Shown piece by piece: positions 208-60,760 of a DNA stretch of 64,000 nucleotides; position 1 is the stretch's first letter, and each line of letters opens with the position of its first letter. A model generated the notes under the pieces. It was not told where the DNA came from and did no database searches. It was given only the letters and a program-made list of their open reading frames with translations. Origin of the DNA: Ginglymostoma cirratum (taxonomy: Eukaryota); assembly GCA_024137785.1 (NCBI GenBank), contig JAHRHZ010000012.1, positions 37,693,431-37,757,430 of the forward strand, read 5' to 3'. Both the position numbers and the translations under genes were made by a program.

Positions 208-551
208 TGAAATCTTGTAGTTGGTTGGCTGGCCGAGCTGGTTTGTTGTTCCGCAGACGTATCATTACCCTGCTGGGTAACGTCAGCATTGCAGCCTCCG
301 ATGAAGTGCTGTTGTGTTTTCCCATCTGGTATTTAAACTCTGGAGTCCGTTGAGCTGGATCACCTCACTTCTGGTTTTCCTTCGCAATGGTGTGTTTATG
401 GGGGTGAACTTCTATGTATTTGTTGATGGCTTTCTTTGTGGAGTACCAAGCTTCTAAGAACTCCCGTGCTTGTCTCTGCTTGTTCCAGGATCTTGGTGTT
501 GTCCCAGTCGAATTGGTGGTTCTCCTTATCCATGTGGATAGAGATGAGTGT
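208..551 (-). mobile_element. Penelope-like (Poseidon-type) retroelement 3' fragment: GIY-YIG endonuclease C-terminus plus pLTR with decayed hammerhead
   Basis: Minus strand reads LISIHMDKENHQFDWDNTKILEQ/(frameshift)QRQAREFLEAWYSTKKAINK, typical of the PLE GIY-YIG tail. Decayed hammerhead-like motif at about 254-290 (minus: CAATGCTGAC GTTACC CAGCAG GGTAAT GATACGTC). Confidence 0.75.
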
Positions 552-1663
552 TCTCTACGTGGATAAATTAGAAAGTTAAGAGCTGTCCATTTGGAGACAC
601 TTAGGTTAAACTGTGTACATATTGAAAATTTCTTTAAAGGACATTTGCCAAAGAACCAAATGGATTTTTTGTTTTACAAAAGTGCAATTTTTTTGTGGTC
701 ATGTGACATGCAATCTTATTATTTTTCCCAATTTTGTCTAATTATCTGAGTTTACTGAATTTAAGGATTAATTAATTCCATAAATTATAAGTCACAGCTC
801 TTCAGAGAAATCTTTCAAATTGCATTGTTATAATGCTAATCAATAACTGAAACCATCAAGAAGCTAGTTGTGACTTGAGCAGGGTTTTAGAGACCCCTAG
901 ATCTCAGGTCCTTCAATTCACCATCTAAATTCTGAGCTCAGTGAAGGTAGTTCAGCTGCCTGTAGGTGGCCATCCAGTAGCAGGTGCTGCTCCACCCACC
1001 TCTCCAGAAAATATCCTAGGGATTACCTTTTCTGTAGTTCAACATATTATTTAGTTATTAAGTGATATTCAGTTGATGCTGATCTTAGCTTGTCAAAGTA
1101 AAAGTCTTCAAACATGAAATCATGTGTGATTCTTTTCTTAGGTCATTGAGACCTTAATTTCTCGTTCCACTTAACAGTCTATGCTAGGATCATGTCAATA
1201 TACAATGCTTTTGATATCCGTACGTGTTAAAGTGCATTGACGACTGTTTATCTATGGCTTGCTAAATCCTTGGATGCCGCATTAGTTGTGCTTTTCTCTC
1301 TTGATCTCTGTTTTCTAAAGTCTGAAACTTCAATCAGTTTATGTTAAACATTTGAATTTGTTAATATACTAATACTGGTACTAAAATCTTCTACTTCAAT
1401 GTCCTAACAAACCTATCAATGAACCTTTGTCTTAATCACAATTTTAACCCCCAAGACACTGTGGCATTAACTTTATCTAGAATTTGAGGAGATTGAAAAA
1501 TGAGACTATGTTGACATGTTATTTTGTCAGTTTCATTTATCTGGAAATTATTACTTTCATTAAAAGCGTGCTTGTCATGTATTGAAGTTTTCCTTCTCTG
1601 CAACAACGTATTTGTTGACTTGTATTTAATATTTGTTTTCTCTTTTTCTCTTTCATGCTGTAG

Positions 1664-1731
1664 TGGGTTTGTTTTCTTGCGGTTGATTTGTCCAGCTATT
1701 CTCAATCCAAGGATGTTTAGTATCATTTTGG
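1664..1731 (+). CDS. RASA1: RASA1 internal exon (RasGAP domain, FLR motif): (S)GFVFLRLICPAILNPRMFSIIL
   Basis: Pyrimidine tract and TAG acceptor at 1661-1663, GTGAGT donor at 1732. 68 nt. Contains the RasGAP signature FLRLICPAILNP. Confidence 0.95.
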
Positions 1732-2454
1732 GTGAGTCTTCCCTGGTGAAAATTTGCATTGCTTTATAACCATGGTGTCTTTTATATCTTGTGCTGCTTT
1801 AATCCAACTTATGAAGTTCTTGCGGCGTTCCTCCTGTTTTTTTAAATACGTGGAGGTGAAACCAACTTCATTGTCTTACTTTTTATGTACTAGATAATTA
1901 AAATTGCCTGGACTGCAGAATTGAGTTATCATCAAACTGCCTTTATAAGTCCTTAACTAATGTCTTCGGAACAAGAGGTTGCAAAACTATAGAATCTTTC
2001 TAAAATAAGAATGGAATATACTCAAAAACTCAGCAGTTGCATATCCCTGAGTTTTTGTTATCTGCAGTCTATTTCTGTAAGTGTACAAGCCCTTTGGTCG
2101 TTCATGTGTTTTCTATGGCTGTGCACAAATGGTGATTGAAAGGGGCTGACTTATGCTCATTCTGCATGGATACTCTCTAGTTGCAGAGCTGCTGCACAGC
2201 TTAGAAAGGAGCATTGCTCTGCAAGTGTGACAGTATCTATGAAGAGAGAAACAGCTTCATTTTTCGAATCAATAACCTTTCATCAGAACCCACTGAGATA
2301 TTTTCAACGTGTGCAACATTTGTTTTCCGTCTTTATTCTTTCATAAGATGTGAGCATTGTGAACTGTACCAGGTCATTCCTGAATTATTTTCAAACTGAG
2401 TTGTTTATTAGGCCATGGCAAAGGGTAGTTAAAAGTTCGTAAGGCTTGATGGGT

Positions 2455-4860
2455 GTCAGACCACAAGTGAGCTGTTCAATCCATCAAGTCTGCTCCACCA
2501 TTCAATGAGATTGTGGCCAATCTGATGATCCTTGACTCCATTCTTTATGCTTTTTTCCCCCCATAACCCTCAGTTACCTTACTGCTTAAAACTCTGTCTA
2601 TCTCAGCCTTGAATGTACCTAATGACCCAGTCTCACCAGCCAGCCACAATAAAGAATTCCACAGATTCCCCACCCCCCGAAGAAATCCCTCCTCATCTCT
2701 GTCTTAAATGGGCAACTCCTTATTCTGAGATTATCCCATCTAGTCCTAGACTTGCCAACAAGGGGAAACAAGCTTTCGACTTCTGCCTTGCCAAGTCCCC
2801 TAAGGTTCTTGAATAATTCAAAAAGGTCATCTCCCATTCTTCTAAACTCCACTAAGATGGTTCCTCCACACCTGCTATCAGGTCAATAAACCTTCTGTGG
2901 ACTGCGTCCAATGCCAATATCAACTCCTTCGATAAGGGCCACAAAACTGCTCATAGTATTTAAACTGTGGTGTGGATTGACTAGTGTCATGTATAGCTTT
3001 AGCAAAACCTGCCCTGCTTTTATTCTCCATTCCCTTTGAAATAAAAGCCAACATTCCATTTGCCTTCAGTATTACCTGCTGAATTTGGATGCTAGGTTTT
3101 TGTGATTCTTGAACAAGGACTTGCACATCCCTCTGTTCAATAGCATTTTGCGTCTTTCTCTAGCTAAATAACATTTAATTCCTCTATTCTTCCTTCCAAA
3201 GTGCATAACCTCACGTTTTCCCACATATTCCATATATCAAGATGTTGCCCACTGGCTTAACCTGTTTATCGCTCTGCAGACTTTATCATCTTCACCACCT
3301 GTCTCCCCATCTTTTTTTTGTCATCTGTAAACTTGACTACTGTACATTCACTTTCTTCATCTAAGTCGTTACTATATATTGAAAATAATTGTGGCCTCAG
3401 CACTGATCCCTGTGGTGCTCTAATATTTGCAGGTTTCCATCCTGAAATGCCCCCATGTCCCAATTCTCTATCTTCTATTATTTAGTCACACTTCTGCCCA
3501 TGCTAATATAATGCAACCAACACCATGAGCTCTTATCTTATCAAATGCCTACTGAATGTCCAAATATATTACATCCATTGCTTCCCCTTTATCTATCCTG
3601 CATGTTATGTCTCCAAAAAATCCAATAAATTTGTTGGGCACAATATCTCCACCAGTGAAACCACACTGACTCCCATCATATTATATATTTCTAAATGCTC
3701 TGCTATTATATCCTTTATAATGGATTTTAATATTTTCCCAATTATAGACATTAAGCTAAATGGTGCATGTTTACCTTTTTTATTTTGATCTTCTTCTAAA
3801 TAACGCTGTACATTGGTAGTTTTCCAAAATCTAAGGATGCTTGGAAAATTACTACCAATGTATTCACACTCCTTTTAATATCCTAGGATGCTTCCTATCA
3901 GGTCTAGGGGACTTATTGGTCTTCAGCCCTTTTAGTTTATCTAGCTTTTTTTTACTCCATTCTAGAAGTTACTTACTTCCTTTTCTCCTTTTTGTCCCTT
4001 GATTATTTAATAATTTTGGATTGTTAATAGTGTCTTCTACTATGAACACTGATGCAAAGTGCTTATTCATCTCCTCTTCTGTTTTCTGCATCCCCATTAT
4101 TTCCCCAGCCTTATTTTCTAAGGAGCATATGTTTACATTGGCTTCTCTTTCTTCCTTTTTTTATATCTTTTTTGCTGTTGCTATCCATCTTGATCTTTCT
4201 TGCAAGTTTATCCTCAAAGTTTTTTTCTCCATCTTTTTTTTAAAACATTATTTCTTGGTTTTTAAAAACTCTACAGTGACTTAGCTCTAATTTGTTTATG
4301 CATTTTGTATATGTTTTCTTTCATTATGTTCCCTGGTTAATAATTGTTGGCTTATTCCCTACCTAGAATCCCACATCCTCACTGAAATGTACTTTTGTTG
4401 TGAGCCATAAACTATTTTCTTAAATATTTATCTGTATTCTTCATGGTCTTTGCTGTTAAACTCCTTCTCCAGTCCATTGCAACCACCTTTGCCTTCATTC
4501 TTTTATAATTATTCTTATTTAAGCAGGTGTTTCCAACCCAAGTTCATCCTTCAGAGTGAATGTTAAATTCTACCATGTTATGGTGCGTTTCCAAGGGGAA
4601 ATTTTACTTTGACATAATCTATTAAGGCTGCCTCATTACACGTCCCTGGATTCAGAACAGCCTGATCCTTGGTTGGACTTGAACATGTTGTTCCAGGAAA
4701 CTGTCCCAAATATACTCTACAAATTTGTTCTCATAGCTTCCTCGCCAATCTGACTATCTCAATCTACATCAAGATTAACGTCACTCATGATTGATGCACT
4801 GCCTTTGTTGCATGGCATCCCACCATATAGCTACTGTTGAGGGCCTGTAGACCAGTAGTT
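2455..4860 (-). mobile_element. Degraded CR1 LINE (ORF2 RT and 3' end)
   Basis: Minus-strand fragments PQGSVLRPQLFSIYSNDLDEE..VVKFTDD, KANGMLAFISKGMENKS and EFRRMGDDLFELFK. Many stops and frameshifts. Confidence 0.85.
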
Positions 4861-7077
4861 CCCAGCCTTTTCCATATCTCACTTAAATAGACAAATGGTT
4901 CTTTAACAGCCAGACCTTTTTTCAACTGAATTGAGATCCCATAATCTTTACTTTTACTTGCATTTTCTGTGGTCACTGTCTTACTAGAGATGTTTCTAAC
5001 AAGATGCATGCAAAAAGTTAAAGAAGAATCAAAAGAGTTAATGTTTCAAATCCACCAGAAAAAATAGTCTTCAGCTGTGAACACAAACATGTTTTCAAAT
5101 GCTGCTGAACTCAACTATTTGTTGACTTTTCTCTGAAATGAGACATTTCAGGTGAATGGCAAGTGGTATCTCCTGTTCATGAAAATCCAAAGGGCAGATG
5201 GTTCTCGTTGTGCTGTCTATGAACAGTTCTGTTCTTTTCTTTGGGTTCAAATGTTTCATCGAATGAATTAGCAGAGAAATCATCTCTTTTGACAGGAAAC
5301 TTCTCCATTTCTTCTTAGAATCTATACTAAGGCTTAGATTCGTGGTTTAACTAAAGTGAAATCCAAAAATATTCACCTTTTAAGTTCTTGCTAAATTGGA
5401 TACTTGTCCAGGCAGACAGGCCACTTCAAAAGTCATTCAGCAATTGTGTCTTTTTACTGCGCATGCTCGGTTTTTCTCATCCTGGAGACACTATCCTCAA
5501 TCAATGTACACTACTCAAACTGAATATTTGGTTCTGTGCATGTGCAAGTAGGCTGCATAACAATCAAATTCCAATACTGCTTTACGTGTATGGGACATCC
5601 CTCACTGCACATGTGTGGTACTGAATCTCCATGCATGGCAGTATCAGGAGTCAGTGTGAAGCTGTGCTACTTTGAGAATTTCATGGCATGCTCCTCATTT
5701 TGCACTGATTGAAAATCTCTGCTTTGGAGTACTCCTACCAATGTTTTCTTTCTTTTTTTCCAGTTCTTACCTCTATCTATATGGATTCTATGCCCAAAAT
5801 CATTTCTTGCCATTGCGCTTATTCCATTGTATATCAACGATGCTACCCCACCACTCTTTCCTTCCTGCCTGGCCTTTCAAAAAGTCACATACTCAACTTT
5901 TATTTCATTATTCACTCATGGGATATTGGTATCACTGGCTGGGGCAGCATTTGTTACTCATTTAGAAGGTCTTGGTGAACTTCACTTGTACTGTGATGGC
6001 ACCAGTGTCCTGGTGAATTGAAAAACTAGGACTATAGAAATGGCTCTAAACTAATTAGAGCAGGAGAGAATCGGGCAAGAGAAGACATAGGTTTACAAAG
6101 CAAGATAATATGGCAGCATTACAGGCACTTATATTTCTGGCTTTGATTCCCTTGCATACGTGTCCCTGGAATGGCTATAGAGTAATATCCACCTAATCTG
6201 TATTTGCACTGTTAATTCATTTATTTTGTTCCTAATATTGCATGTATTTAAGTCATGAGCCATTAATTATCCTTTTTACCATCTTTTCCACCTGTTTGAC
6301 CCTGTTTACTGCTGTTTTTGCTCTGCTTGTGTACTCTGTCCCTTTCCGCCCTATTCTGCGTCTCATTATCCAAATAGCTGCCCTGTCATGCTGCCATATC
6401 CTCTTACTTTGTAAGCCTACGTTTTCCATCTCCCAAATCCTCACCTGCTTTAATTAGTTTAAGGTCTTCTCTACAACCCTAGTTCGCCAATTTGCCAGAA
6501 CACTAATGCAACGTGGTTCAAGTGAAGCCTATCCCTCCAGAGCAACTCCCTTCTACCCTAGTACTAGTGCCAGTGCCTCACGAACTGTTACAGTGCATTG
6601 TCAGTACTTCAGACTCCAGCTCCTCAACTCAGTTTTGAGATTCCTCAAGCTGCACACATTTACTATAGGTGTATTCACTCTGAATTACATCGGTGTCCAG
6701 CAGCAACACATCACCTGTCATGCCACTTATCGTATTTGAATTAACTTGTAGATTAATTACTCGATTCCCTGTAAATTTACAAGTAACCATAATGATACTT
6801 CATTCTTGTAAACTAAAAGAAAATAAAAATCACTAGTTTCTAACCAGCTATTTTTAGGAAAAGAGAGCATAAAAAAAACTGGAGATCTGAGTACAAACTG
6901 GCATCCTTACTTTTATTTAAAAATTGGAAGTGTTTACCAAACATACTCATCAATCAGCTTCTTTATCCCCTGTCACTTGCCTCTCATTTTGGAGAGTTTT
7001 CTTCTTGCAGTAAACTCTTGCTAAAGCACCTCTCTACCCCTTTGCATCAAATTTCCAGTAGTATAGTCAATAATAAT

Positions 7078-7365
7078 CTGTGTCTGTGTGGAGGTTGCAC
7101 ATTCTCCCCGTGTCTACATGGGCTTTCATCGGGTACTCTGGTTTCCTCCCACGGTCCAAAGATGTGCAAGTTAGGTGGATTGGCCATGTTAAATTGCCCA
7201 TAGTGTTCAGGGATGTGTAGGTTAGGCGCATTAACAATGCGAAATACAGGGTTACAGGGATAGTGTAAGGGGATGGCTCTAGGTGGGATGCTCTTCGAAT
7301 AGTTGGTGTGGACTTGTTGAGCTGAATGGGCTGTTTCCACACTGTGGGGATTCTATAATTCTGTG
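7078..7365 (+). mobile_element. HE1-type V-SINE, 5'-truncated
   Basis: V-domain CTGTGTGGAG..TTCTCCCCGTGTCT..GGTTTCCTCCCAC.GTCCAAAGATGTGC and a CR1-like tail. Matches the copies at 7816, 13447 and 54408. Confidence 0.85.
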
Positions 7366-7440
7366 AACTAACTCGGTCTTCATCTCACTCTGCTGGGATC
7401 TCGTGCACGCTGACAGTGCTCCTTGCTCAATTGTTGTATG

Positions 7441-7670
7441 GGGCTGGAGCGACGTGCAAGTCAGACCAGGTAAAGATGGCAGCTTTCTTTCCCATTAGGG
7501 AACTAGATGATAGATTTTTACAACAATCAATGATGGTCTAATGCTCACCATTACTGAGATGAGATTTTAATTCCAGATTTTTTTTTAATTAAATTCCACC
7601 AGCTATGTTAGTGGGATTTGAACATATGCCTGCATTTATTAATAGTCCAGTGACAATCCACTAGCGCACT
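7441..7670 (-). mobile_element. tRNA-derived SINE, LF-SINE-like family, degraded
   Basis: Minus strand: GTGCGCTAGTGGATTGTCACTGGACTATT..GTTCAAATCCCAC (A/B-box-like head). Similar to the copy at 51248-51451. Confidence 0.55.
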
Positions 7671-7815
7671 TGCCCTAGTTAGCATTTTGCCTTTGTGTAT
7701 AAGTTACTTTAAAGATGTGCCTACAAGTGAAAGAGAGTCCAGTTTTTGTGGGTGCGATGAATGAAGTGAGCGAAGGAGACATAACCAGAGGAACTGTGAT
7801 AAATAAATAATTTTT

Positions 7816-8117
7816 GGGCGGCACGGTGGCTCACTGGTTAGCACTGCTGCCAGGGACCGGGTTCGATTCCAGTCTTGGGCGACTGTCTGTGTGGAGTTTG
7901 CACATTCTCCCTGTGTCTGCATGGGTTTTCTCCAGGTGCTCTGGTTTCCTCCCACAGTCCAAAGATGTGCAGGTTAGGTGAATTGGCCATGCTAAATTGC
8001 CCATAGGAATGTGTAGATTAGGTGAGTTATAGGGGGATGGGTCTGGGTGGGATGCTCTGAGGTTCGGTGTGGACTTGTTGGGCCTAAGGGCCTGTTCCCA
8101 CACTTTAGGGATTCTAT
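7816..8117 (+). mobile_element. HE1-type V-SINE
   Basis: tRNA head GGGCGGCACGGTGGCTCACTGGTTAGCACTGCTGCC, B box GGTTCGATTCC, V-domain and CR1-derived tail. Confidence 0.9.
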
Positions 8118-8659
8118 GAATAAAAGAGAATGGAGTTCAGAAAAGGGAAAAAAGTAAACAAGAATGAAAGAAACAGGCTATGGGGAAGATGGGCAGTGGA
8201 AATGCTTGCAATGACTTTTTTTAATACATAGAATACATCTTGAATCTTTGAGCACAAGAGCTCACACTTCTGTTTATGGGATTTTATATTATTACCGATC
8301 AAATGCAGCTCACTTTTAATGCTTGTATGACTATACAGATACAAAGGTTTGTGCTACCCCTTTTTAGAAGGTTAATGTCTTGGTTGCATCCATTAAGTAA
8401 TTAAACTATTAAAATTTTACTCTGTTACTTGATAAGAAGGAAGCTGTTCTGTCCATCATGCCTTTGCCAGCTCCTTTGTACACTTGTTCAACTAGTCCCA
8501 CTTCTCTGCTCTATATGCAGAGTATCTTTTGGGTATTTATCTAATCTCCTTCTGCATGGTTCTACTGAATCTGCTGTGATCAAATCTGTAGGCAGTGCAT
8601 TTTAGATAATCAAAATACTTTCTTTTTTTTAATCTCATCCCAATCACTTTAAATGTGTT

Positions 8660-8753
8660 ATAACAAGGTGTAGAGCTGGATGAACACAGCAGGCCAAGCA
8701 GCATCAGAGGAGCAGGAAGGCAGACGTTTCGGGCCTAGACCTTTCTTCAGAAA
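8660..8753 (-). mobile_element. PLE family A pLTR fragment with hammerhead core (8723-8750)
   Basis: Minus strand CTGAAGA-AAGGTCTAGGCCC-GAAACGTC. Near-identical to the termini of the GIY-YIG-bearing elements at 24206 and 59450. Confidence 0.85.
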
Positions 8754-9084
8754 AGTGTTGTCTAGTTATAAACTCTTCCACCATTGAAAGAAGTTTGCTG
8801 TTGCTGTATTAAAACCATTTTTGATTTTTGAACACCTCCGTTAAATCTCCTGACCTTTACAGCTTCTCTAGTTTGTCTGCCCAACTGATGGCTGTCATCT
8901 CTAGCACCATTTTAGTTGATATTTTCTGTACCCGCACTAAGACCCTGGCATCCTTCCCGAAGTGTGTGCTCAAAAAGCATACCGTAACCTAATAAGACAA
9001 AACAATGTTTTACAAAGATTTGTAGTAACTTCCTTGCATTTGGACTATCTATTATTAAAGCCATAAATTTCATAGGTTTTCTTA

Positions 9085-9958
9085 GAACATAGAACAGTAC
9101 AGCACAGTACAGGCCCTTCGGCCCACGATGTTGTACCGAACTTTTACCCGAAACCTAAGGTCTGTCTAACCTCCACCGCTACCTTATACTATCATCCATA
9201 TACCTATTTAATAGCCGCTTAAATGCCCCTAATGAGGCCGACTCCATTACCCTCTCCGGCAATGCATTCCACACCCCTACCACTCTCTGAGTAAAGAACC
9301 TACCTCTGACGTCTCCCCGATATCTACCTCCTTTCACTTTAAAACTATGTCCCCTCGTACAAGCTACCTCCACCCTAGGAAAAAGTCTTTGGCTGTCTGC
9401 TCTATCTATACCTCTGATCATTTTGTACACCTCTATCAAGTCATCTCTCATCCTTCATCGTTCTAAAGAGAAAAGCCCTAGCTCTCTCAACCTTGCCTCG
9501 TAAGACCTTCCTTCCGTTTCAGGCAACATCCTGGTAAATCTCCTCTGCACCTTTTCCAACACTTCCACATCTTTCCTGTAATGAGGTCACCAGAACTGGA
9601 CACAATACTCCAGATGTGGCCGAACCAGGCTCTTGTATAGCTGGAGCATAACTTCATGGCTCTTAAACTCAATCCCTCTATTAATGAAAGCTAACACACC
9701 ATACGCCTTCTTAACGACTCTATCCACCTGGGTGGCAGCTTTCAGGGAACTGTGAACATGAACTCCAAGATCCCTCTGCTCCTCCACACTGCCAAGAATC
9801 TTTCCGTTAACCTTGTATTCTGCTTTCAAGTTTGTCCTTCCAAAATGAATCACCTCGCACTTTTCAGGGTTAAACTCCATCTGTCACTTCTCAGCCCAGC
9901 TCTGCATCCTATCAATGTCCCTTTGTAACCTAGAACAGCCCTCCGCACTGTCCACAAT
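9085..9958 (-). mobile_element. Relatively young CR1/HER1 LINE 3' fragment nested in an older CR1 (about 8440-10240)
   Basis: ORFs 9587-9880 (MEFNPEKCEVIHFG..LVRPHLEYCVQFW) and 9179-9451 (RDDLIEVYK..FFTQRVVGVWNALP). TTCTATGTTCT-type tail. Confidence 0.92.
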
Positions 9959-10367
9959 GTGACCCACTTAGGTTTTGAAATTTTCTTGCCACCTTCAAAG
10001 GTCTGTGTGTACCCATACCCCAGATCTCTCCTCCTGTGCTGTCTTGAAAACTATATCACTCAGTGCTTGTTGTCATTCCACATCGTTCAACCAAAATGTA
10101 CCACTTTGTTATTCTCCATTTTAAATTGGGTCTGTGTAATTTGCCAATCTGTGTGGCATCCTGAAGTTGCTTGGTATTTTCCATTTGAATTTATCATCTG
10201 TGGAGTCTGAAATCATGCCCTGTACCCCCATGCTTAAAATTTGCAGAATTATTTCTGATTGCATGATCGTTGATGAACTTGGTAGAAATCAGATGAGATT
10301 TTTGTAAAGTATAGGATAACGGAATGCAAACTGTAAAAATAATTTATTTTTCTTGTTTTGTTTTTAG

Positions 10368-50961: not shown

Positions 50962-51070
50962 TTTTTCTGAAGAAGGGTCCCGACCCGAAACATCAGCTTT
51001 CCTAGTCCTCTGATGCTGCTTGGCCTGCCGTGTTCCTCCAGCTCCACACAGTGTTATCTCTGACTCCAGC
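50962..51070 (+). mobile_element. PLE family A variant pLTR with hammerhead core (50967-50994)
   Basis: CTGAAGA-A-GGGTCCCGACCC-GAAACATC. Confidence 0.8.
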
Positions 51071-51247
51071 TCAGACTCCAGGTCAGACTCTCTGACTCTG
51101 ACTTTGTTCCTGATTTACAGTATCCGCAGTTCTTTTGGTTTTTATGGAAGTAAACAAGTGTGTTTATGGGTTGAATACTACAGTGGAGGTATAATATTTC
51201 TCAATCGGTCCTTCCTGCTGAAAGTAGGTGGACATTCAGCAAGGAGA

Positions 51248-51451
51248 GGTGTTAGCATAGTGGTAACTTCACTGTGCAAGCAATCAAAGCCCACTTTAAT
51301 ATTCTAGAGACATGGGTTTGCATCACATAATGGCATGTGGTGAAATTTGTGTTAAATAAAAACCTGGAATTAAAAGCTGGTCCAAAAGCAACCATGTAGC
51401 CACCATTGTCATAAAAATCCATCTGATTCAGTAATGTCATCTAGGGAAGGA
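51248..51451 (+). mobile_element. tRNA-derived SINE, LF-SINE-like family, degraded
   Basis: TAGCATAGTGGTAA..GACATGGGTTTG..CCTGGAATTAAAAGCTGG..AAAAATCCATCTGATTCAGTAATGTCATCTAGGGAAGGA. Confidence 0.55.
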
Positions 51452-51783
51452 CCTCAGTGAGGATTTTGCATCCAAAAGGGAAAAAAAAACACTTAAAAAG
51501 TTCGAGTGGACAGTTAAATTGGTGCGCTCAGACATTCTTGTTAATATGGATTGCATCCGAGTATTTTGATGAAACATGCTACTGTTGAGAAGGGTTGAGA
51601 ATGAATAACGCAATAAAGAAATTAAAAAGTGAAAAATGTACATTTTTATATTATACAGCTTTATATGTATCTCAGAAGACACAAAGTGCATCCTTTTTCA
51701 CAATGCCAAACATGCCAAACTTCTGGATGGCTATTCACATAAAGCAGGATATATTTTGTTCAGGAAGAAGAATGAATGGTGTC

Positions 51784-51963
51784 AAAATAAAAACCGGAAG
51801 AACTGTGGATGCTGTAAATCAGGAACAAAAAACAGAAGCTGCTGGAAAAACTCAGCAGGTCTGGCAGCATCTGTGAAGAAAAAAAATCAGAGTTAACGTT
51901 TCGGGTCTAGTGACCCTTCCTCAGAATGTTCCGAGGAAGGGTCACTGGACCCGAAACATTAAT
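51784..51963. mobile_element. PLE family B mini-insertion with short inversion
   Basis: TSD AAT(G/C)AATGGTGTC at 51771-51783 and 51964-51976. Confidence 0.85.
51895..51924 (-). ncRNA. Minimal type I hammerhead ribozyme motif (intact core)
   Basis: Minus strand CTGAGGA-A-GGGTC(ACTA)GACCC-GAAACGTT. Confidence 0.7.
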
Positions 51964-53090
51964 AATCAATGGTGTCTGTTGGTCGGAAAAGCTAAGAAAA
52001 TAGAAAGGATAGTTAAAAGTATCTTAGTTGCTGAGGCATCGGCATGATCAGAAGCCATACAGATGTGCACATATCTAATATTCTAAAGGAAATATCATAT
52101 AAGGGGCAATTTGAGAAAATGTTGCCCATAGAATGTTGTGTGGATAAGTGTTCTCTCTGGGGCAGTGTACATTCAACAAAGATTGTCACTGAGAAATAGT
52201 TAAGGATTGGCCTTGCTCGCACAAAGGAAATGTTAGAAAGAAATTGTCAATATAAAGTGGGTTGATGTAAGCCACCAGTTGTGAGATTCTCACAAATGCA
52301 AAACATTGGACATCACTGCTTGAAGAGTATGAGGAGATACATCTTTAAAAAAGTAAACAAAAATCAATTTTTGTTCTGACCATTTTGTGATTAGGGATAT
52401 CATAACAATCTGTTCAAAACAAGGGGAATATGGGAGGTTGACTATTTTATGAATAATGAAAAAATATAACTTTCCTATTATTAATTGCTTATAATATATA
52501 GAATATGAAAACAACATTTTATTTAGTGTTGTTCGAGGAAGAGCAAGGGAATCTGTTAGCTAGTTAAGTAGGTGATTGGGTTAATTGATAAATGAATTGA
52601 CTGGGAAATATACATAGGGAACAGGTGGGGCTGGCATTAAGCCTGAGTAGATGCAAATGGGTGATTTAGTGGTGGGTTTTCAAAAACAAAGACTAAGAAG
52701 TTAATAAATTCTATTCACAACGCAATGAGTCTTTGTTTCTGTCTCAACAACTGGTTTGGATTTGAGAGTCATTGTTGTGTTATCCTTCGAGTAAGTCACT
52801 AGGAATTAACTATTTTTGGAAAAAAAATCAATATCTACAAGAATTGTAACAATATTACTCACTCGCTACCTTTTTATCATTGCACTAATATAACCATTTA
52901 TAGGAGTGTTCACAGTGAGAATTAATTATTGTTGAATTTTGCAAACAGAAATAAAATGAATGCTGAAACATGCATACCAGTTACTGCACTACTTAAGACA
53001 TTTCTACAGAAAACGATAAACAAACTGTTTCAAACTTTCAACACACCCAAGAGTTCAGAATTACAAATTCAATCACTGTTGGTATGATAC

Positions 53091-53301
53091 CTTTAGATCA
53101 ATAAGAAAACCCTCAAAAGGTCGAAATGGATTGTGGACAATGAGATGAAAGTTCAACTGCTGAATAAGCAACAGTTCATACTCAAGGATTTGTTCCAAAG
53201 CCTTCTCTTGACCCGCAGGGCTTTCCCACAGATTAGCAACAAACTGGGAACTGGAGACATTAAATTCATCCACTTTACACGCTAAGTATACACTTGTCAA
53301 C
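53091..53301 (-). CDS. CCNH: CCNH exon 4: [70 protein letters not shown]
   Basis: CAG acceptor, GTATCA donor. 211 nt. Cyclin box motifs LACKVDEF and [14 protein letters not shown]. Confidence 0.97.
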
Positions 53302-54407
53302 CTGAACCAGAAAGAGAATAAAAAGATTTAATGAAACAGACTTCCAAAATCGAATTATATTACAGCTCAAAGGCCATTCAATTTAGCAATTCTTTCTGAA
53401 ACCCTGCATTAGACACTTAATCTCATTTCTTTCTCACTCCTTAAATATTAATATTCCTCTTTTATCAATAGATTATATAATCTTACTTTTAACCTAATTT
53501 ATAACTTTACTTCATCATCTGTTTATGGTCTAGAATACCACATTTAACCAGTTTCTGCACATAGACCTTATGATTATCTTCAATTTGTGCCCTTTCATCA
53601 CGGTCTCGCAAACCAGTGAAAAACATTGTTGATTTACTTCACCTTAATCATTCATTAATTTCATGGCTTACATCCTTTAATCTTCTGTAAGCAGTAATGT
53701 CACACAGTTATGGCAATGATTAAAAAAATGGACTATCAATTTTTGAATTCCATTTCAGCTCTAAGATCTTTCATGACCTAAAGCAGATTCTTCTTAAAAC
53801 AAAAACAAAAATAGTGAATTAATATGGCCACAACGGTCAGCTAACCAGGTGGCACAAACTTTAGGAAACCATTAATAAATAAAGTTCTATCGACACCATT
53901 GTTATAGTAACAGGCAGTAAGATGCCAATCTGTATCTCCTGGTTGAGTCACATCTTTCTGGAAGTTTCGCACATTGGATGGAAGTCACCTGCAGGTTATC
54001 CAGCTTGAACAAAAATTGAAACCAGACATGGGAATACACAATTGTATTTCCAGAAACAGATTTTGCACAGAGAGAACAGAAAATACGAATTTGTAACAGG
54101 AGAATGATCCCAATCCCGATCCCGATCCCTCCCTCAGTTCCTATTACAGGTTCTTGAGAAACAGTGCTCAATTATAAAGCAAACTGGAAGAACATCCATT
54201 CACTGAGAAGTCAGGATGCAAGGCATGAATTAAACTACTGCAGTCTCAGGTTATAATCTAATTCTTCAAAGCCTCTAAGCATTTCTCACTTGATCATTCT
54301 TTTTGTAACAGACACTTTTCCCTTTTCAAACTCCAGGGCTATTTTTGTATATATTTGATGCCACATTTTAATAATTTTTGTCAGCGTACGTAATAAAATT
54401 CCTCTTA

Positions 54408-54696
54408 TTTCATACAATCCCTAAGTTGAGAAAAGAGGCCATTCTGTTCATCAAGTCTGCACCAACCCTCTGAAGGCCATCCCACCCAGACCCATCCCTG
54501 TAACCCCACATTTACCATGGCTAACCCACCAAGCCCACACATCTTTGGACTGTAGGAGCACCCAGAGGAAATCAATGTAGAAACGGGGATAACTTGGAAA
54601 CTCCACACAGACAGACAGTCACCCAAGGCTGGAATTGAACCTAGTTACCTGGCGCAGTGAAGCAGCAGTGCTAACCACTGAGCCACCATGCCACCC
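54408..54696 (-). mobile_element. HE1-type V-SINE
   Basis: Reverse complement of the GGGTGGCATGGTGGCTCAGTGGTTAGCACTGCTGC head and V-domain. Confidence 0.88.
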
Positions 54697-55178
54697 TCAA
54701 GAAAATCTTGTAATTAGTTCCTTCATTTGATCTCATGAACTACTTTAAAGTGTAATATAGCTGCTTGGTAAAAATAAAAAAAAATTTTCAGCCAACTGAG
54801 GGGGTTTAAAAAAAGGAACCAATTCACTCCTCCTCAACTGGTCATACCATGATAAAATTAAAACAGTGAGTTCTGAACAACAGCAATTACAAAGTAGGAA
54901 CTAAGAAAAGGCTATTTTCGAAATACAAATTGCAATATATTTCCATAACACTGAATCAAAAATGTATATTTATACCGGTATCCACAATGATCATTACAAG
55001 TAATCTGGGAAGAATTTATGTAATTTATTGATAGGTTTTGATATTATTATCTTATTACAAATGAAATACAGAAATAAAATAAAACTTAAATTAACAGCCC
55101 TTTGAAAATTATCAGTAATCTGGAGAAATTACTAACTTTGCAAACAGCAAGCCAGTCAGGAAACAGACAAAAACTCAC

Positions 55179-55252
55179 ATTATAGTCCTTGGATGATATT
55201 CCATTACGGAATTACTCAAGAAGAATCTCTTGAAATACATACTTGCGGTTCC
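55179..55252 (-). CDS. CCNH: CCNH exon 3: GTASMYFKRFFLSNSVMEYHPRTIM
   Basis: TTTAG acceptor, GTGAGT donor. 74 nt. Confidence 0.96.
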
Positions 55253-55544
55253 CTAAACGAAATACATATAAACAATGCTCTCACAATTGATCATACACAC
55301 GTGCAATAGATAGAAGGATGTTTAAATGAAGATAATAAGTAGACTTTGATGAACCACATTTGGCCTTTTATGCAATCAATATGTAGTGTTATTTAAAACA
55401 ATTGTAGTAAAAGCACCCAATCACTTTCTTTTAAAGAAATTGTTCTGCTACTTAATTTTGTTCACATAAAAATCAGACCTTAAACATGTAGTGTTTCCCA
55501 ATGATGCAAACTGAAAAGGCTGAAGGGACAGTTAACATGCATGG

Positions 55545-56095
55545 TCATACAGTCATAGAGCTGTACTGCACAGAAACATACACTTCGGTCCAACTCGTCG
55601 CTGCCGACCAAATATCCTAAATAAATCTAGTCCCATTTGCCAGCATTTGGCCCATATGCCATTAAACCCTTCCTATTCATATACCCATCCAGGTGACTTT
55701 TAAATATTGTAATTGTAACTGCCTCCACCACTTCCTCTGGCAGCTCATTGCATACACGCACCACCCTCTGAGTGAAAAGCTGCCCTTTAGGTTCCCTTTA
55801 AACTCTCTCCCCTCTCACTGTAAACAATGCCTTCTAGTTTTGGACTCTCTCCCACCCCAGGGAAAAGACCTTGTGTATTCACCCTATCTGTGCCCCTCAT
55901 GATTTTATAAACGTCTAAAAGGTCACCCTTGAACCTCCAATGCTCCAGGGAAAATAGCCCCAGCCTATTCAGCCTCTCCCTATAGCTCAAACCCTCCAAT
56001 CCTGGAAACATCTTTATATACCTTTTCTGAACCATTTCAAGTTTCATAACATCCTTCCCATAGCAGCGGGACCAGAATTGAATGCAATATTCTAA
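55545..56095 (-). mobile_element. CR1 3' fragment
   Basis: ORF 55787-56047 LEMVQKRYIKMFPGLEGLSYRERLNRLGLFSLE. Confidence 0.88.
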
Positions 56096-56160
56096 AAGTC
56101 AATGAATAAATCACAAAATGACTCTCACTTTTTGTACAAATATGAGATATGTATTCTTAC

Positions 56161-56277
56161 CACCACGGATTTAGGCATGATGGGTTTAAATGCAGAGCAG
56201 AATTCCAACAGTCTTTTTTCATAGTATTTACGTATTACCTCCTCTTCCTGAGGCTCCAGTAATGCCACTGGAGAAAG
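56161..56277 (-). CDS. CCNH: CCNH exon 2: [39 protein letters not shown]
   Basis: TTTTCCTGAACAG acceptor, GTAAG donor. 117 nt, phase 0. Confidence 0.95.
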
Positions 56278-57341
56278 CTGTTCAGGAAAACCAAAGCAAA
56301 GCAATCATTATCAAGACAAACAACTGGCAAATAGCAACTCAATATTTTTCTCTTTTATTAAAGTGGGAAAAGGCTTTAAATACATTTAAATTCACCTTTC
56401 TGGGGAAAAGGGGGTGAAGAAAGCGAAGAAAGGAGAGAGGTGGTGAACTCTAACAGAATCTATGCTGCCTTTTATAATTTTTTTTTGAAAAATTAGTCCA
56501 ATCAATTTAAAAGAAGAATTTTCTTTAGATTCTGACCAATTTGTTAGCCAAAAGTAACATATCACATTCAACACTATTTGAAGAAATGGAGCAACTTTAA
56601 GAATTGTCTTCATTCAAAACGAGGATCCACTAAATAACAGGTTATTTGCAACCACATCAATCTTAAACATAGTCCAAAATAAACATATAAATAGAAAAAC
56701 AATTCAATAGTGATAGTTTCAACTCTGAATAATTCTGACTGTCTGCTTGGGAAGGACAAATCAAAACAATTGCAAGTCCTTTAGTTGCACAATTTTCTAA
56801 AATTCAGTATTTGATTCTTGTCAACTTAAAATTTATACAATCTTCACTGATCAAGCCTATAATGAAAGGTGTTATCGAAGGAAATTAGATGCTGTTTTTT
56901 CATAATAATTGTGCATTATTTTTCTATTGTTCAAATAATTGGTTGCTAAAAATATTTTGAATTTCATGTGCTACATTTGCGTACCCTTACCTTGATTTAA
57001 ATCACACTTGAAGAAAGCAGTCAAAAGCAGAACCATTAGTATTTACGAACCCCTCATCATCATTTAGAATTTTAATATTCTGAAGTTGAAATTTCCAAAC
57101 GGAATCCAAGGCTGACAAAAATCAACAGGTGGAACACATGGTTTTAACAGACTTTGGTCTGAGTTTTGCAATCAGCAGCTTCAGAGATGGCACATGTCAC
57201 GGACCTCGAAGAATGATGCCCACAAAGGTCTAGTGATTTTTGTGGCATGGATTTCACCTCTTTCCCAAAATTAACTTTATTCTGGTGCCATTTCGCCTCA
57301 CCTCAGTTCTAAATGGCCTATCCCATATCTTTAAACTGTGA

Positions 57342-57929
57342 TAACAAGGTGTGGGGCTGGATGAACACAGCAGGCCAAGCAGCATCATAGGAGCAGGAAA
57401 GCTTGACGTTTCGGGCCTAGACCCTTCATNNNNNNNNNNNNNNNNNNNNNNNNNNNNNNNNNNNNNNNNNNNNNNNNNNNNNNNNNNNNNNNNNNNNNNN
57501 NNNNNNNNNNNNNNNNNNNNNNNNNNNNNNNNNNNNNNNNNNNNNNNNNNNNNNNNNNNNNNNNNNNNNNNNNNNNNNNNNNNNNNNNNNNNNNNNNNNN
57601 NNNNNNNNNNNNNNNNNNNNNNNNNNNNNNNNNNNNNNNNNNNNNNNNNNNNNNNNNNNNNNNNNNNNNNNNNNNNNNNNNNNNNNNNNNNNNNNNNNNN
57701 NNNNNNNNNNNNNNNNNNNNNNNNNNNNNNNNNNNNNNNNNNNNNNNNNNNNNNNNNNNNNNNNNNNNNNNNNNNNNNNNNNNNNNNNNNNNNNNNNNNN
57801 NNNNNNNNNNNNNNNNNNNNNNNNNNNNNTCAAGCTTTCCTGCTCCTATGATGCTGCTTGGCCTGCTGTGTTCATCCAGCCCCACACCTTGTTATCTCGG
57901 ATTCTCCAGCATCTGCAGTACCTTTTATC
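57342..57929. mobile_element. PLE family A palindromic insertion spanning an assembly gap, within a minus-strand CR1
   Basis: Identical inverted arms either side of the Ns. 14-bp TSD TCTTTAAACTGTGA at 57328-57341 and 57930-57943. Confidence 0.85.
57430..57829. other. Assembly gap (400 N)
   Basis: Run of N. Confidence 1.
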
Positions 57930-58269
57930 TCTTTAAACTGTGACATCTGATTCTGGACTCCCTGGTTATCGGAAACATCTTTCCTGCATTTACCCTGTCT
58001 AGTCCTGTTAGAATTGTAGAGGTTTCTATTTGATCTGCCTCATAGATCTAACTTCTAGTGAATATAGCCTTAACCAATCCAGTCTCTCTTTATACATCAG
58101 ACCTGCCATTCTAGGTAAATCTATACTGTACTCCCTCCATAGTCGGAATATTCCTCCTCAGAGAAGGGGACCAAAAATTGCATACAATACTCCTGGTGTG
58201 GTTTCATTGAGGCCCTGTACAATTGCAGCAAGATATCCCTGCTCCTATACTCTCCAATATTTTTGAGAC

Positions 58270-59435
58270 ACAGGGGTTAGTGAGATGGAGGAATGGAAGG
58301 AAATCATAGTTAGCAGGGAAATGGTGTCAGGAAATTGATGGGATTAAAAGCCCATTCATGTGCATAATGCACTTCTAGGTAGAGACACACAGAGAGGTTG
58401 ATAAATCCCCTAGAACCCAATAATCTGCAACCCAGACTACTTAAAGGAATGGCCCTGGTGGATGCATTGGTGGTCAAGATTCTTTAGGTAGTGGAACAGT
58501 TCCTACAGTATAGTTAATGTAACCCCACTGTTTAAAAAAAGGAAGTAGAGAGAGAATGGAATTATAGACCAATTAGACTGACACCGATACTAGGAAAATG
58601 CAGGTTCTTTTGTAAAAGATTTAAAAGCAGACTACTTGGAAAACAGTGACAAGATCGAACTGAGTCAGCACAGATTCACAAAAAGGAAATCATGCTTGAC
58701 AAATCGACTGGAATTTTTTTTAAGATGGAAATAGTAGCTTGATTAGGAGGAGCCAATGGACATGGATTACTTGGACCGTCAGAAGACTTTCAATAGAAGT
58801 CCCACGTAACAGACTGGCATGTGAAATTAACACACATAGGATTGGGCAAAGTATATGCTCATGAACAGAAAAATAGTAGACAGGGCACAAAGGGTTGGAG
58901 TAAGCGGGTCTTTTTCTGAATGCCAGGCAGTAACTAATGGGATACGCTGGGTCAGTGCTTGGACACCAGCCATTCTTAACACTGATTAATGATTTAGACA
59001 AGGAAACTATGCGTAATATCTCCAAATCTGCTGCTCCTCCTTATCAAGCTACTATGTGTATACAATGTTAATTAGGCCACACTGTGTGCAACTCTGGTCA
59101 CCACAGTCTTCAAAGGATGTGACTGCACGAGAGAGGGTGCAGAGGAGATTCTCAAGGGTAGAGCAATTCAGCTACGAAGACAGACTAGATAGGATGAGTT
59201 GTTTTCCTTAGAATAGAGAAGGCTGAGGGGGGACCTGCTTAAGGTAAACAAAGTTGAGAGGCATGAATAGGGTAGATAGGGAAAAACCTGCTCCCCTGGG
59301 GTCAATAGTGAAGGGGTCAATAGCTGAGGGCAGTTTTAAAGTAAACAGCAGGAGAATTAGAGGGGATTTGAGAGAAAAAAAAATAACTTAGGGTAGTGGG
59401 TATCAGACCTCACTCCCTAAAACAGTTGACAGATC
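58270..59435 (+). mobile_element. Degraded CR1 fragments (continuing at about 60775-60920 after the PLE insertion)
   Basis: NVTPLFKKGSRE..NYRPI and KRKSCLTN motifs. Confidence 0.75.
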
Positions 59436-59449
59436 AGGAACTCTCAAGA

Positions 59450-60760
59450 GATAAAAGGTACTGCAGATGCTGGAGAATCCGAGATAACAAGCATGGGGCT
59501 GGATGAACACAGCAGGTCAAGCAGCATCATAGGAGCAGGAAAACTTGACGTTTCGGGCCTAGACCCTTCATCAGAAATGGGGGAGGGGAAGAGGGTTCTG
59601 AAATAAATAGGGAGAGAAGGGGAGGCGGATAGAGGAGAGGACAGGTGGAGAGGAGGCAGACAAGTCGAAGAGGCGGGGATGGAGCCAGTAAAGGTGAGTG
59701 TAGGTAGGGGGGTAGGGAGGAGATAGGTCAGTCCAGGGAGGACGGACAGGTCAAGGGGGTGGGATGATGTTAGTAGATAGGAGATGGGGGTGTGGCTTGA
59801 GGTGAGAGGAAAAACAGGTTAGGGAGGTGGAGATGAGCTGGGCTGGTTTTGGGATGCGGTTGGGGGAGGGGAGATTTTGAAGCTTGTGAAATCCACATTG
59901 ATGCCATTGGGCTGCAGGGTTCCCAGGCTGAATATGATTTGCTGTTCCTGCAGCCTTCGGGTGGCATCACTGTGGCATTGCAGGAGGCCCAGNNNNNNNN
60001 NNNNNNNNNNNNNNNNNNNNNNNNNNNNNNNNNNNNNNNNNNNNNNNNNNNNNNNNNNNNNNNNNNNNNNNNNNNNNNNNNNNNNNNNNNNNTCCAGGCT
60101 GAATATGATTTGCTGTTCCTGCAGCCTTCGGGTGGCATCACTGTGGCATTGCAGGAGGCCCAGGATGGACATGTCATCTGAGGAATGGGAGGGGGAGTTG
60201 AAATGGTTCGCGACTGGGAGGTGCAGTTGTTTGTTGCGAACTGAGCGCAGGTGTTCTGCAAAGCGGTCCCCAAGCCTCCGCTTGGTTTCCCCGATGTAGA
60301 GGAAGCCACAACGGGTACAGCGGATGCAGTATACCACATTGGCAAATTTCACAAGCTTCAAAATCTCCCCTCCCCCAACCACATCCCAAAACCAGCCCAG
60401 CTCACGTCCACCTCCCTAACCTGTTTTTCCTCTCACCTCAAGCCACACCCCCATCTCCTATCTACTAACATCATCCCGCCCCCGTGACCTGTCCGTCCTC
60501 CCTGGACTGACCTATCTCCTCCCTACCCCCCCTACCTACACTCACCTTTACTGGCTCCATCCCTGCCTCTTCGACTTGTCTGCCTCCTCTCCACCTATCC
60601 TCTCCTCTATCCATCCTCTATCCGCCTCCCCCTCTCTCCCTATTTATTTCAGAACCCTCTTCCCCTCCCCCATTTCTGATGAAGGGTTTAGGCCCGAAAC
60701 GTCAAGTTTTCCTGCTCCTATGATGCTGCTTGACCTGTTGTGTTCATCCAGCCCCATACT
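59450..60760 (-). mobile_element. Penelope-like element family A with GIY-YIG remnant and an inverted copy of about 410 bp
   Basis: NVVYCIRCTRCGFLYIGETKRRLGDRFAEHLRSV..QEQQIIFSLGTLQPNGINVDF. Inversion at about 60343. Intact hammerhead cores at 59547-59574 (-) and 60676-60703 (+). 14-bp TSD AGGAACTCTCAAGA at 59436-59449 and 60761-60774. Confidence 0.93.
59993..60092. other. Assembly gap (100 N) with duplicated flanks
   Basis: About 70 bp before the gap (59923-59992) recurs right after it (60094-60163). Confidence 0.95.

What the first reader, a model, noticed from the sequence alone, without database searches (positions are those of the whole stretch)
208..60760. Window-wide swarm of minimal hammerhead ribozyme motifs in at least three Penelope-like families, with co-varying stem II
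Seen: the core CTGANGA-(A)-stem II-GAAAC(G/A)T(C/T) recurs at 8723, 14680, 22184, 24305, 36619, 46000/46040, 50693, 50967, 51895, 59547 and 60676, and is decayed at about 254. Stem II changes sequence but keeps pairing: GGGT/GCCC, GGGTC/GACCC with different loops, GAGTC/GATTT and GTTACC/GGTAAT. Stem III is reduced to the palindrome ACGT. Known: Penelope-like elements carry minimal type I hammerheads in their pseudo-LTRs, and these cleave mainly as dimers. Inference: this shark genome carries roughly one ribozyme-like motif per 4-5 kb, at least four with intact cores, inside introns of two conserved genes.
Basis: partly seen in the sequence, partly recalled or inferred. Interest (0 to 1): 0.7.

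Follow-up and report, generated by a model that had tools for sequence, protein, structure and literature searches.

The report
Penelope retrotransposon leaders starting with hammerheads
This DNA is full of short front-end copies of known Penelope-type jumping genes, each carrying a tiny hammerhead (self-cutting RNA) motif; most copies are broken, but their shared start point, promoter signals and an added G suggest they were likely copied from capped, uncut RNA that begins four or five letters before the motif.

Summary
The motifs are real: 12 matches against 0.13 expected in the window, and 109,024 exact cores against 77 controls genome-wide. They are minimal type I hammerheads in the pseudo-LTRs of Penelope-like elements: two Neptune-type families (A, B) and one Poseidon-like family (C). 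This is a known kind. Only four window copies are intact (36619, 51924, 59574, 60676), and 36619 and 60676 are antisense to their host gene, cyclin H. Covariation is real mainly between families; within families it is mostly wobble change or decay. Most copies are 95-135-nt leader pieces. Their 3' ends fall at two sites about 36 nt apart, and their 5' ends pile up 2-6 nt before CUGA, about tenfold above background. That site lies 29-31 nt behind a TATA-like box, matches an initiator, and is preceded by G in 28 of 44 cases against 26 of 103 elsewhere. I infer that the element's RNA is capped there and was copied uncut. No reproducible genomic or RNA-seq sign of cleavage was found. The scan noted these repeats and their shared start before, on other DNA of this genome; the TATA/initiator spacing and the G test are added here.

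The parts
220..673 (-). Family C (Penelope/Poseidon-like) 3' end: endonuclease C-terminus, UTR, decayed hammerhead at about 250-287, short tail
   Evidence: antisense in a Ras GAP 1 intron (intronic by inference)
2190..2290 (-). Old B/D-like leader, decayed hammerhead
8663..8753 (-). Family A (older subfamily) solo leader starting at TTT before CTGA; A.C mismatch at first stem II pair
14581..14707 (-). Family B solo leader, C3 missing, decayed
20370..20495 (.). Family B head-to-head fragments without core; 7-bp target-site duplication
22185..22325 (+). Family D leader, stem II GAGTC/GATTT, ACAT decay
24207..24990 (-). Family A 5'-truncated element: linker/GIY-YIG end, 3' UTR with TATTTATTT box, hammerhead at 24332-24305 (G.G mismatch), tail
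28786..28902 (+). Family A leader truncated inside stem II (no CUGA); short target-site duplication
29805..30019 (.). Family B head-to-head pair, one insertion, 12-bp target-site duplication, decayed
32803..32984 (.). Family B head-to-head pair, 14-bp target-site duplication, decayed
36615..36711 (+). Family A solo leader starting at ATTT; intact core 36619-36646; 10-bp target-site duplication; antisense in a cyclin H intron
45895..46143 (.). Family B head-to-head pair (46029-, 46040+), both cores broken; the + copy starts G|AGTT; 9-bp target-site duplication
50573..50782 (.). Family A head-to-head pair: - copy cut inside stem II, + copy starts at CATTT (50693, ACAT decay); 15-bp target-site duplication
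50964..51145 (+). Older family A leader (50967, ACAT decay) followed by a family B tail
51788..51962 (.). Family B insertion: - copy with intact core 51924-51895 (sense to cyclin H; helix I only 2 bp because of 5' truncation) and a short + partner; 9-bp target-site duplication
57333..57932 (.). Young family A head-to-head insertion with a 400-N run in the middle, in cyclin H intron 1
59447..60757 (.). Young family A insertion in cyclin H intron 1: GIY-YIG fragment framed by inverted pseudo-LTRs; intact cores at 59574-59547 (-, sense to cyclin H) and 60676-60703 (+, antisense); 11-bp target-site duplication; one side carries the 36-nt tail
60641..60649 (+). TATA-like box TATTTATTT, 31 nt before the initiator A at 60672 (inferred promoter)
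1650..17935 (+). Host gene: 3' coding exons of Ras GTPase-activating protein 1 (about 1650, 10400, 12030, 16750, 17860-stop)
27940..63160 (-). Host gene: cyclin H, first coding exon about 63160, last exon 27940-28213

Best explanation
The motifs are minimal type I hammerheads in the pseudo-LTRs of Penelope-like retroelements, and the swarm likely arose when the element's reverse transcriptase started about 90 or 128 nt inside its own capped, uncut RNA and ran off the 5' end, which is predicted to lie 4-5 nt before CUGA. Shown: the motif follows the 3' UTR of an RT plus GIY-YIG ORF; copies end at two 3' sites about 36 nt apart; 5' ends pile up just before the core; a TATA-like box lies 29-31 nt upstream; G is enriched before the start; insertions carry 7-15-bp target-site duplications; most copies are decayed. 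Inferred: the start is a Pol II start site and the G is a copied cap. Priming in the upstream leader would give 95-135-nt solo copies, priming in the downstream leader longer ones, and template jumps the inverted and partial-tandem forms. Inferred from known biology: the ribozyme is selected only in master elements, is weak alone, and needs a dimer or the element's protein; inserted copies are mostly inert. If it cuts, it would remove the first 32-34 nt with the cap.
For: Motif enrichment. Family A ORF has RT, a CX4CXXC linker and GIY-YIG, open for 702 aa in L049 and near-identical in other copies. Family B is 40-68% identical to it at protein level and has the same linker. 3' ends: 34 of 104 at +90..96 and 41 of 104 at +126..128, where the reference ended; this matches the two internal RT starts and the tail described in PMC11167929. 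5' ends at -5..-1: family A 28 of 103; family B 31 of 69 at -5..0; 15 of 71 copies that carry the element's 5' body. Pooled: 14.8 against 1.35 starts per nt (A) and 8.0 against 0.65 (B). TATA-like box to initiator A: 31 nt in 139 of 143 A matches and 29 nt in 13 of 16 B matches. G before -4/-3 starts: 28 of 44 against 26 of 103, Fisher p 1.5e-5. Untemplated letters ending in G lie between the duplication and the start in several loci chosen for that G, for example L174. An untemplated 5' G is attributed to cap copying for L1 and SVA (PMC3287187). Helix I covaries between families, AUUU/AAGU against AGUU/AACU, and its 5' strand is exactly the inferred first 4 nt. RNA-seq reads cover the predicted cut evenly.
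Against: No direct RNA 5' end was seen: no place with many read starts or ends on L304, though a fragmented, unstranded library is insensitive to this. The peak's mode is at -2, and T-run microhomology blurs it. A at -4 is about as common as G genome-wide (1,424 VG against 2,399 VW), and G-rich inverted partners supply some of the G. Two of the 28 G cases (L168, L169) leaked from loci chosen for G; without them it is 26 of 42. The TATA spacing counts are of related copies, so they amount to two independent observations. RT stalling at the hammerhead fold, or endonuclease cutting at ATT in a pre-existing pseudo-LTR (PMC11167929), could also fix this boundary. Drosophila Penelope has a TATA-less internal promoter (PMC2377424), so the layout is not universal. 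Family C shows no clear peak (2 of 9 at -17).
Confidence: 0.75

Rival explanations
1. They are the same Penelope pseudo-LTR hammerheads, but the fixed 5' boundary is a structural or targeting hot spot (RT falls off at the base of the hammerhead, or the endonuclease cuts at ATT in its own pseudo-LTR), not the RNA's start.
For: Starts remain somewhat raised over +1..+6. The anole enzyme prefers ATT just after the ORF-pLTR junction (PMC11167929). AT-rich microhomology favours joints at TTT.
Against: This does not explain the TATA-like box and initiator at canonical spacing in two families with different UTRs, the G excess, or the same offset in family B, whose start is AGTT rather than ATT.
Confidence: 0.17
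2. The ribozyme cuts efficiently in vivo, and many copies derive from cut RNA or processed leader units acting as an independent SINE or retrozyme.
For: In the young A subfamily, apparent starts rise just after the cut: 44 of 100 at +29..31 against 13 of 100 at +26..28 (hand tally of the first 100 of 2,627 matches), and 386 at +29 against 70 at +26. This subfamily has the better helix I. Some loci start exactly at the cut directly after a target-site duplication (L197, L201, L209).
Against: There is no step in the older A subfamily: 37 of 100 at +29..31 against 40 of 100 at +26..28 (hand tally of the first 100 of 1,889). Family B shows none by eye, in a list swamped by a 2-nt deletion variant. 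0 of 71 body-carrying copies start at +29/+30. The A-rich sequence after the cut favours chance microhomology. The dominant class keeps the whole core, so it came from uncut RNA. No tandem arrays of the unit were seen.
Confidence: 0.06
3. The intact intronic copies are domesticated ribozymes that regulate Ras GAP 1 or cyclin H pre-mRNA.
For: Intact sense copies exist in cyclin H introns (51924, 59574, probably 57429); the last two lie 2.1 kb apart in intron 1 and could pair in cis.
Against: They are ordinary members of families with tens of thousands of exact copies. All four copies in the Ras GAP introns are antisense. Most copies are decayed. Spliced cyclin H junctions are seen for the downstream exons. 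The predicted monomer fold of family A hides the core (-9.3 against -3.5 kcal/mol for the hammerhead fold).
Confidence: 0.02

Closest known systems
Minimal type I hammerheads (min-HHR) of metazoan Penelope-like elements (Cervera and De la Pena 2014, PMC4209133; main text parts 1-2 of 4 read)
   Same: [quoted passage not shown]
   Different: Count: 109,024 exact cores here against about 4,000 (coelacanth) and 9,000 (Xenopus) there, with different descriptors and genome sizes. Helix II is only 4-5 bp in families A and B. The text read names no cartilaginous fish; its supplements were not read. It gives no start-site analysis.
Neptune clade EN+ Penelope-like elements (Craig et al. 2021, PMC8557442; passages read)
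   Same: Single ORF with RT, CX2-5CxxC linker and C-terminal GIY-YIG with CCHH; 5' truncation, partial tandems, inverted 5'-truncated partner and 30-40-bp tail.
   Different: Clade assigned by motifs only; Nematis shares the linker and was not excluded by a tree. Insertions here have ordinary target-site duplications in mixed sequence; a microsatellite bias was not tested.
Poseidon of Anolis carolinensis, PAc (Frangieh et al. 2024, PMC11167929; parts 1-2 of 4 read)
   Same: Two internal RT start sites that define the tail; uncut RNA as the main template; no RNA-seq ends at the cut site.
   Different: In PAc the ORF starts at stem II. In family A the long ORF starts about 170 nt downstream, after a 39-codon upstream ORF. 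The parts read do not map a transcription start or a cap-derived G. PAc cleavage was shown in vitro with protein; it was not tested here.
Adineta vaga Pen2a pseudo-LTR (PMC3846280; passages read)
   Same: Putative TATA box and initiator inside the pseudo-LTR; inverted pseudo-LTR, tail and target-site duplication.
   Different: There it is a single copy with a 20-bp spacing, and the passages do not link it to the hammerhead or to 5' ends of insertions.
Non-LTR retrozymes (bioRxiv 10.64898/2026.07.22.740005; part 1 of 5 and passages read)
   Same: Type I hammerheads related to PLE pseudo-LTRs; reported in the one chondrichthyan sampled.
   Different: Retrozymes are tandem arrays; these copies are solo, head-to-head or partial tandems tied to coding elements.

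Membership tests
Minimal type I hammerhead of PLEs | Core CUGANGA ... GAAA ... NUH in type I order | tested here: met
   Intact at 36619, 51924, 59574, 60676; 109,024 against 77 genome-wide
Minimal type I hammerhead of PLEs | Extra nucleotide after A9, G10.1-C11.1 pair, palindromic ACGU without loop 3 | tested here: met
   Commonest forms of families A, B and C
Minimal type I hammerhead of PLEs | Helix II and helix I supported by covariation | tested here: met
   A+B+D: 5 of 8 pairs with a double change, 2 of 500 shuffles as high. C: 85% of cells paired (3 of 500), but double-change pairs 4 of 12 are not above shuffles (204 of 500). Small hand-picked sets; relatedness is not removed.
Minimal type I hammerhead of PLEs | Helix I of 4-5 bp | tested here: inconclusive
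   4 bp in young A (with one G.U) and in B; 2-3 bp in older A; shorter in truncated copies
Minimal type I hammerhead of PLEs | Self-cleavage as a dimer or with protein help | not testable with these tools
   No RNA ends at the cut in one polyA library; genomic start counts at the cut are inconsistent
Rfam hammerhead families | Covariance-model match | tested here: not met
   No hammerhead family among the 15 matches up to E 10; expected for motifs that lack helix III
EN+ PLE, Neptune clade (families A, B) | One ORF with RT and C-terminal GIY-YIG | tested here: met
   L049: RVT_1 E 2e-6 (just under the curated cut-off) and GIY-YIG E 4.5e-5; window fragment GIY-YIG E 2e-6; family B by tblastn
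EN+ PLE, Neptune clade (families A, B) | CX2-5CxxC linker and CCHH in the endonuclease | tested here: met
   A: CNRRKCYTC; B: CNRQRCNTC; CxxC...EH...H read by eye
EN+ PLE, Neptune clade (families A, B) | 30-40-bp optional tail, inverted pseudo-LTR, partial tandems | tested here: met
EN+ PLE, Neptune clade (families A, B) | RT phylogeny grouping with Neptune rather than Nematis | not tested
   No reference sequences were fetched
EN+ PLE, Penelope/Poseidon clade (family C) | C-terminal GIY-YIG endonuclease upstream of the hammerhead | tested here: met
   YIGQTGR...RVHEH...E...N in L081, related to window 365-673; no Pfam hit for the window piece
EN+ PLE, Penelope/Poseidon clade (family C) | No zinc-finger linker; RT phylogeny | not tested
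   No copy long enough was fetched; the clade label is a recalled resemblance
Non-LTR retrozyme | Tandem arrays of hammerhead-bearing units | tested here: not met
   Solo, inverted or partial-tandem copies only; no genome-wide tandem scan was run
Domesticated intronic hammerhead (RECK type) | Single-locus conservation across species | not tested
   No relative's genome is held; young repeat membership and target-site duplications argue against it

The most novel reading that the evidence does not exclude
In vertebrate Neptune elements the hammerhead is the very first structure of the capped transcript: the start site supplies exactly the 4-nt 5' strand of helix I. Cleavage, which needs a second RNA or the element's own protein, would then act as a self-decapping feedback switch that removes the cap and first 32-34 nt and limits translation of the RT-endonuclease. 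On this reading the 100,000-plus genomic leaders are a fossil map of RNA 5' ends in which cut and uncut molecules can be counted, with a small cut fraction in the youngest subfamily, which has the longest helix I within family A.
Probability: 0.25. Interest if true: 0.62.

Novelty: new member of a known kind. Interest (0 to 1): 0.33.

Why it matters
The function of the hammerhead in endonuclease-bearing Penelope elements is still called unclear (PMC8557442). A young family with near-identical open reading frames and over 100,000 intact cores gives unusual statistical power. The inferred layout (promoter in the 3' UTR, capped start at helix I, RT priming 90-128 nt inside) explains why such genomes fill with 100-130-nt leaders, and it turns the open question into simple tests of decapping and translation control. 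For the two host genes the copies are most likely neutral passengers.

Tried and rejected
Rfam scan: no hammerhead match; the miRNA hits below their cut-offs at 29.8, 32.9 and 50.6 kb are the head-to-head pairs. Long open frames of 1,100-2,500 aa at endonuclease hits that I fetched were N runs, not giant ORFs. Fossil test of cleavage: positive in young A, negative in older A, uninformative to negative in B, negative in body-carrying copies; left open. The six starts at +29 may have leaked from loci chosen for that junction and were not used. The idea that family B is a separate SINE was rejected once upstream UTR and ORF were found. A splice acceptor at the 5' boundary was rejected because the genomic letters before the start are CC or TC, not AG. 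RNA-seq: the run search listed no indexed holder on record as RNA. Run X22 laid 46,594 of 12,895,792 reads on L304, 85% running on into unrelated sequence, with no start or end pile-up; X23 laid only 19 reads. ViennaRNA folding favours alternative monomer and dimer folds for family A; it cannot score the catalytic core, so this is weak evidence. A neutral-decay count was begun (54 internal copies listed) but not computed. Of 104 sample stretches, 34 were all N and gave no data, so genome counts are lower bounds. The Lunse, Weinberg and Breaker dimer paper was not held and is known only through PMC6765202. No protein-database, structure or complex prediction was run.


Full report
Observation. 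The pattern occurs 12 times in the window against 0.13 by chance. Only four copies are fully intact (36619+, 51924-, 59574-, 60676+); the others carry stem II mismatches, ACGT-to-ACAT decay or core changes. Rfam finds no hammerhead. In the window's own genome (4.36 Gb) one tight family A pattern has 71,995 exact matches against 0 for the reversed control, and a general intact core has 109,024 against 77. I sampled 104 ten-kilobase stretches at arbitrary fixed positions; 34 were all N, leaving 681,545 bases. They hold 98 family A, 60 family B, 10 family C and 1 family D leader copies, one per 4.0 kb, but only 39 intact motifs, one per 17.5 kb. Numbering below: C of CUGA is +1, the base before it is 0, and the predicted cut follows +28 (A) or +30 (B).

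What the repeats are. Upstream of the family A motif lie a pyrimidine-rich UTR and a GIY-YIG endonuclease end. Longer copies show one ORF with RT, a CX4CXXC linker and GIY-YIG, open for 702 aa in L049 and nearly identical among copies, so the family is young. The linker marks Neptune or Nematis (PMC8557442, passages). Family B has its own UTR and an ORF 40-68% identical to A with the same linker. Family C, at window 220-673, follows a different GIY-YIG end; its Poseidon label is a recalled resemblance. Family D (22185) has no linked ORF in my data. Insertions show the Penelope signatures: target-site duplications of 7-15 bp, head-to-head pairs under one duplication, partial tandems, and two 3' end clusters about 36 nt apart (34 of 104 at +90..96 and 41 of 104 at +126..128, the last bin being the end of my reference). 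These match the two internal RT start sites shown for the anole element (PMC11167929, parts 1-2 read).

Structure. The motif has all sequence features of the metazoan minimal hammerhead (PMC4209133, parts 1-2 read). On 15 hand-picked A, B and D copies, 5 of 8 pairs change on both sides (2 of 500 shuffles as high). On 13 family C copies, 85% of cells pair (3 of 500), but double changes are not above shuffles (204 of 500). Within family A the stem II changes are one-sided. The core is constant across families with unrelated flanks, which points to selection in master elements. Helix I is weak: AUUU/AAGU in young A, AGUU/AACU in B, and 2-3 bp in older A. The predicted monomer fold of A pairs UGAUG with CGUCA and hides the core (-9.3 against -3.5 kcal/mol); for B the two folds are near equal. 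Low intrinsic activity is expected, as reported for this class (dimer data known only through PMC6765202, passages).

The fixed 5' end. Of 103 readable family A 5' ends, 28 lie at -5..-1; of 69 family B ends, 31 lie at -5..0. Among 71 copies that continue into the element's 5' body, 15 start at -4..-1 and none at +29/+30. Pooling 425 junctions, not all unbiased, gives about eleven- to twelvefold more starts per base at the peak than at +7..+60. The peak sits on an initiator-like sequence (CCATTT in A, TCAGTT in B; consensus recalled). It lies 31 nt after TATTTATTT in 139 of 143 A matches and 29 nt after TATAAA in 13 of 16 B matches. The base before a -4 or -3 start is G in 28 of 44 cases against 26 of 103 at other starts (p 1.5e-5; 26 of 42 after dropping two leaked cases). 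An untemplated G at full-length L1 and SVA insertions is attributed to copying of the cap (PMC3287187, passages). RNA reads also show a tandem joint with one G before -4 in 50 reads; these likely come from transcribed genomic copies. Against this reading: genome-wide counts show A before ATTT about as often as G, G-rich inverted partners supply some G, and no RNA start was seen directly. A putative TATA box and initiator in a pseudo-LTR were noted in a rotifer element (PMC3846280, passages), while Drosophila Penelope has a TATA-less internal promoter (PMC2377424, passages).

How it most likely works. The 3' UTR of an upstream copy carries the promoter, so a partial tandem is transcribed from 4-5 nt before CUGA (inferred). 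The hammerhead is then the first structure of the RNA, followed by the RT start sites, a 39-codon upstream ORF, and the long ORF at about +168 (single copy L275). RT priming in this 5' leader gives 95-135-nt copies; priming in the 3' leader gives longer, mostly truncated ones (inferred). Because the dominant copies keep the whole core, their template was uncut, as in the anole system. A cut would remove 32-34 nt with the cap; in the 3' leader it would remove the RT start sites. Either would damp the element (inference, untested).

Is there cleavage? In the young A subfamily, starts rise just after the cut (386 at +29 against 70 at +26; 44 against 13 of the first 100 listed, hand tally). The older subfamily shows no step (37 against 40 of 100, hand tally), and family B shows none, with poor data. 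A-rich microhomology could explain the first result. In polyA RNA-seq, depth is equal on both sides of the cut and no end pile-up appears; the library is unstranded and fragmented. The question stays open.

Host genes. Exons of Ras GTPase-activating protein 1 lie on + up to about 17,935. Cyclin H runs on - from about 63,160 to 27,940. The four copies in Ras GAP introns are antisense. In cyclin H, intact sense copies are 51924 and 59574 (probably also 57429); 36619 and 60676 are antisense. The copies at 20411, 22185 and 24332 lie between the two coding regions.

Known or new. Hammerheads in PLE pseudo-LTRs, at thousands of copies per genome, have been known since 2014. Searches for a shark-specific report found none: one paper, where 'shark' describes the shape; none of the 15 listed of 1,555 holds the ribozyme term, so not exhaustive. 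A 2026 preprint reports retrozymes in one chondrichthyan (part 1 and passages). PMC6155905 and PMC4350176 were seen as passages only. Repbase and Dfam could not be searched, and the supplements of PMC4209133 (not read) and of the preprint (closed) may list such motifs. Earlier notes of this scan on other DNA of the same genome report the same repeats and the shared start; a word search for TATA, initiator and cap found no note. I had recorded the shared start before that look-up. Verdict: new members of a known kind, with a testable clue to how the leader is made; interest 0.33.

Noticed in passing
window 33605-35990 (+): Broken LTR-retroelement fragment with RT, RNase H and integrase zinc-finger Pfam hits, inside a cyclin H intron. 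Observed only.
   Followed up: no
L275 leader, +45 to +170: A 39-codon upstream ORF ends with its stop two bases before the main ATG, a layout that suggests translation re-initiation; the CTGATGA subfamily has a further AUG inside the core.
   Followed up: partly
family A subfamilies: The sequence after the cut differs as AGCT, AAGC and AAGT from older to younger copies, which lengthens helix I from 2 to 4 bp; possible stepwise gain of pairing.
   Followed up: partly
L250-L319: Many insertions are mini partial tandems: a 5' piece of 150-1,400 nt joined to a second leader that often starts again at the fixed 5' site, a record of RT template jumps.
   Followed up: partly
L304:279-316 (run X22): Several hundred RNA reads join starts at -4..-2 to an opposite-strand partner ending at +31 or +33, just past the predicted cut; they may come from a few expressed loci.
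   Followed up: no
family A stem II, e.g. window 36627-36638: Stem II with its loop is nearly self-complementary over 12 nt, and folding predicts an intermolecular duplex there, an alternative dimer contact to ACGU.
   Followed up: partly
run X22: 46,594 of 12,895,792 polyA reads (about 0.36%) match one 901-nt family A stretch, mostly as leaders embedded in other transcripts.
   Followed up: no
L081 and L038 (family C): TTTAAAA or TATAAAT boxes lie about 35 nt before a CTTCA motif 14-17 nt upstream of the core, and 2 of 9 copies start at -17, so family C may start further upstream.
   Followed up: no
window 7050-8140, 13370-13840, 9180-10050, 55600-56100: Other dispersed repeats and LINE-like coding fragments; not classified.
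   Followed up: no
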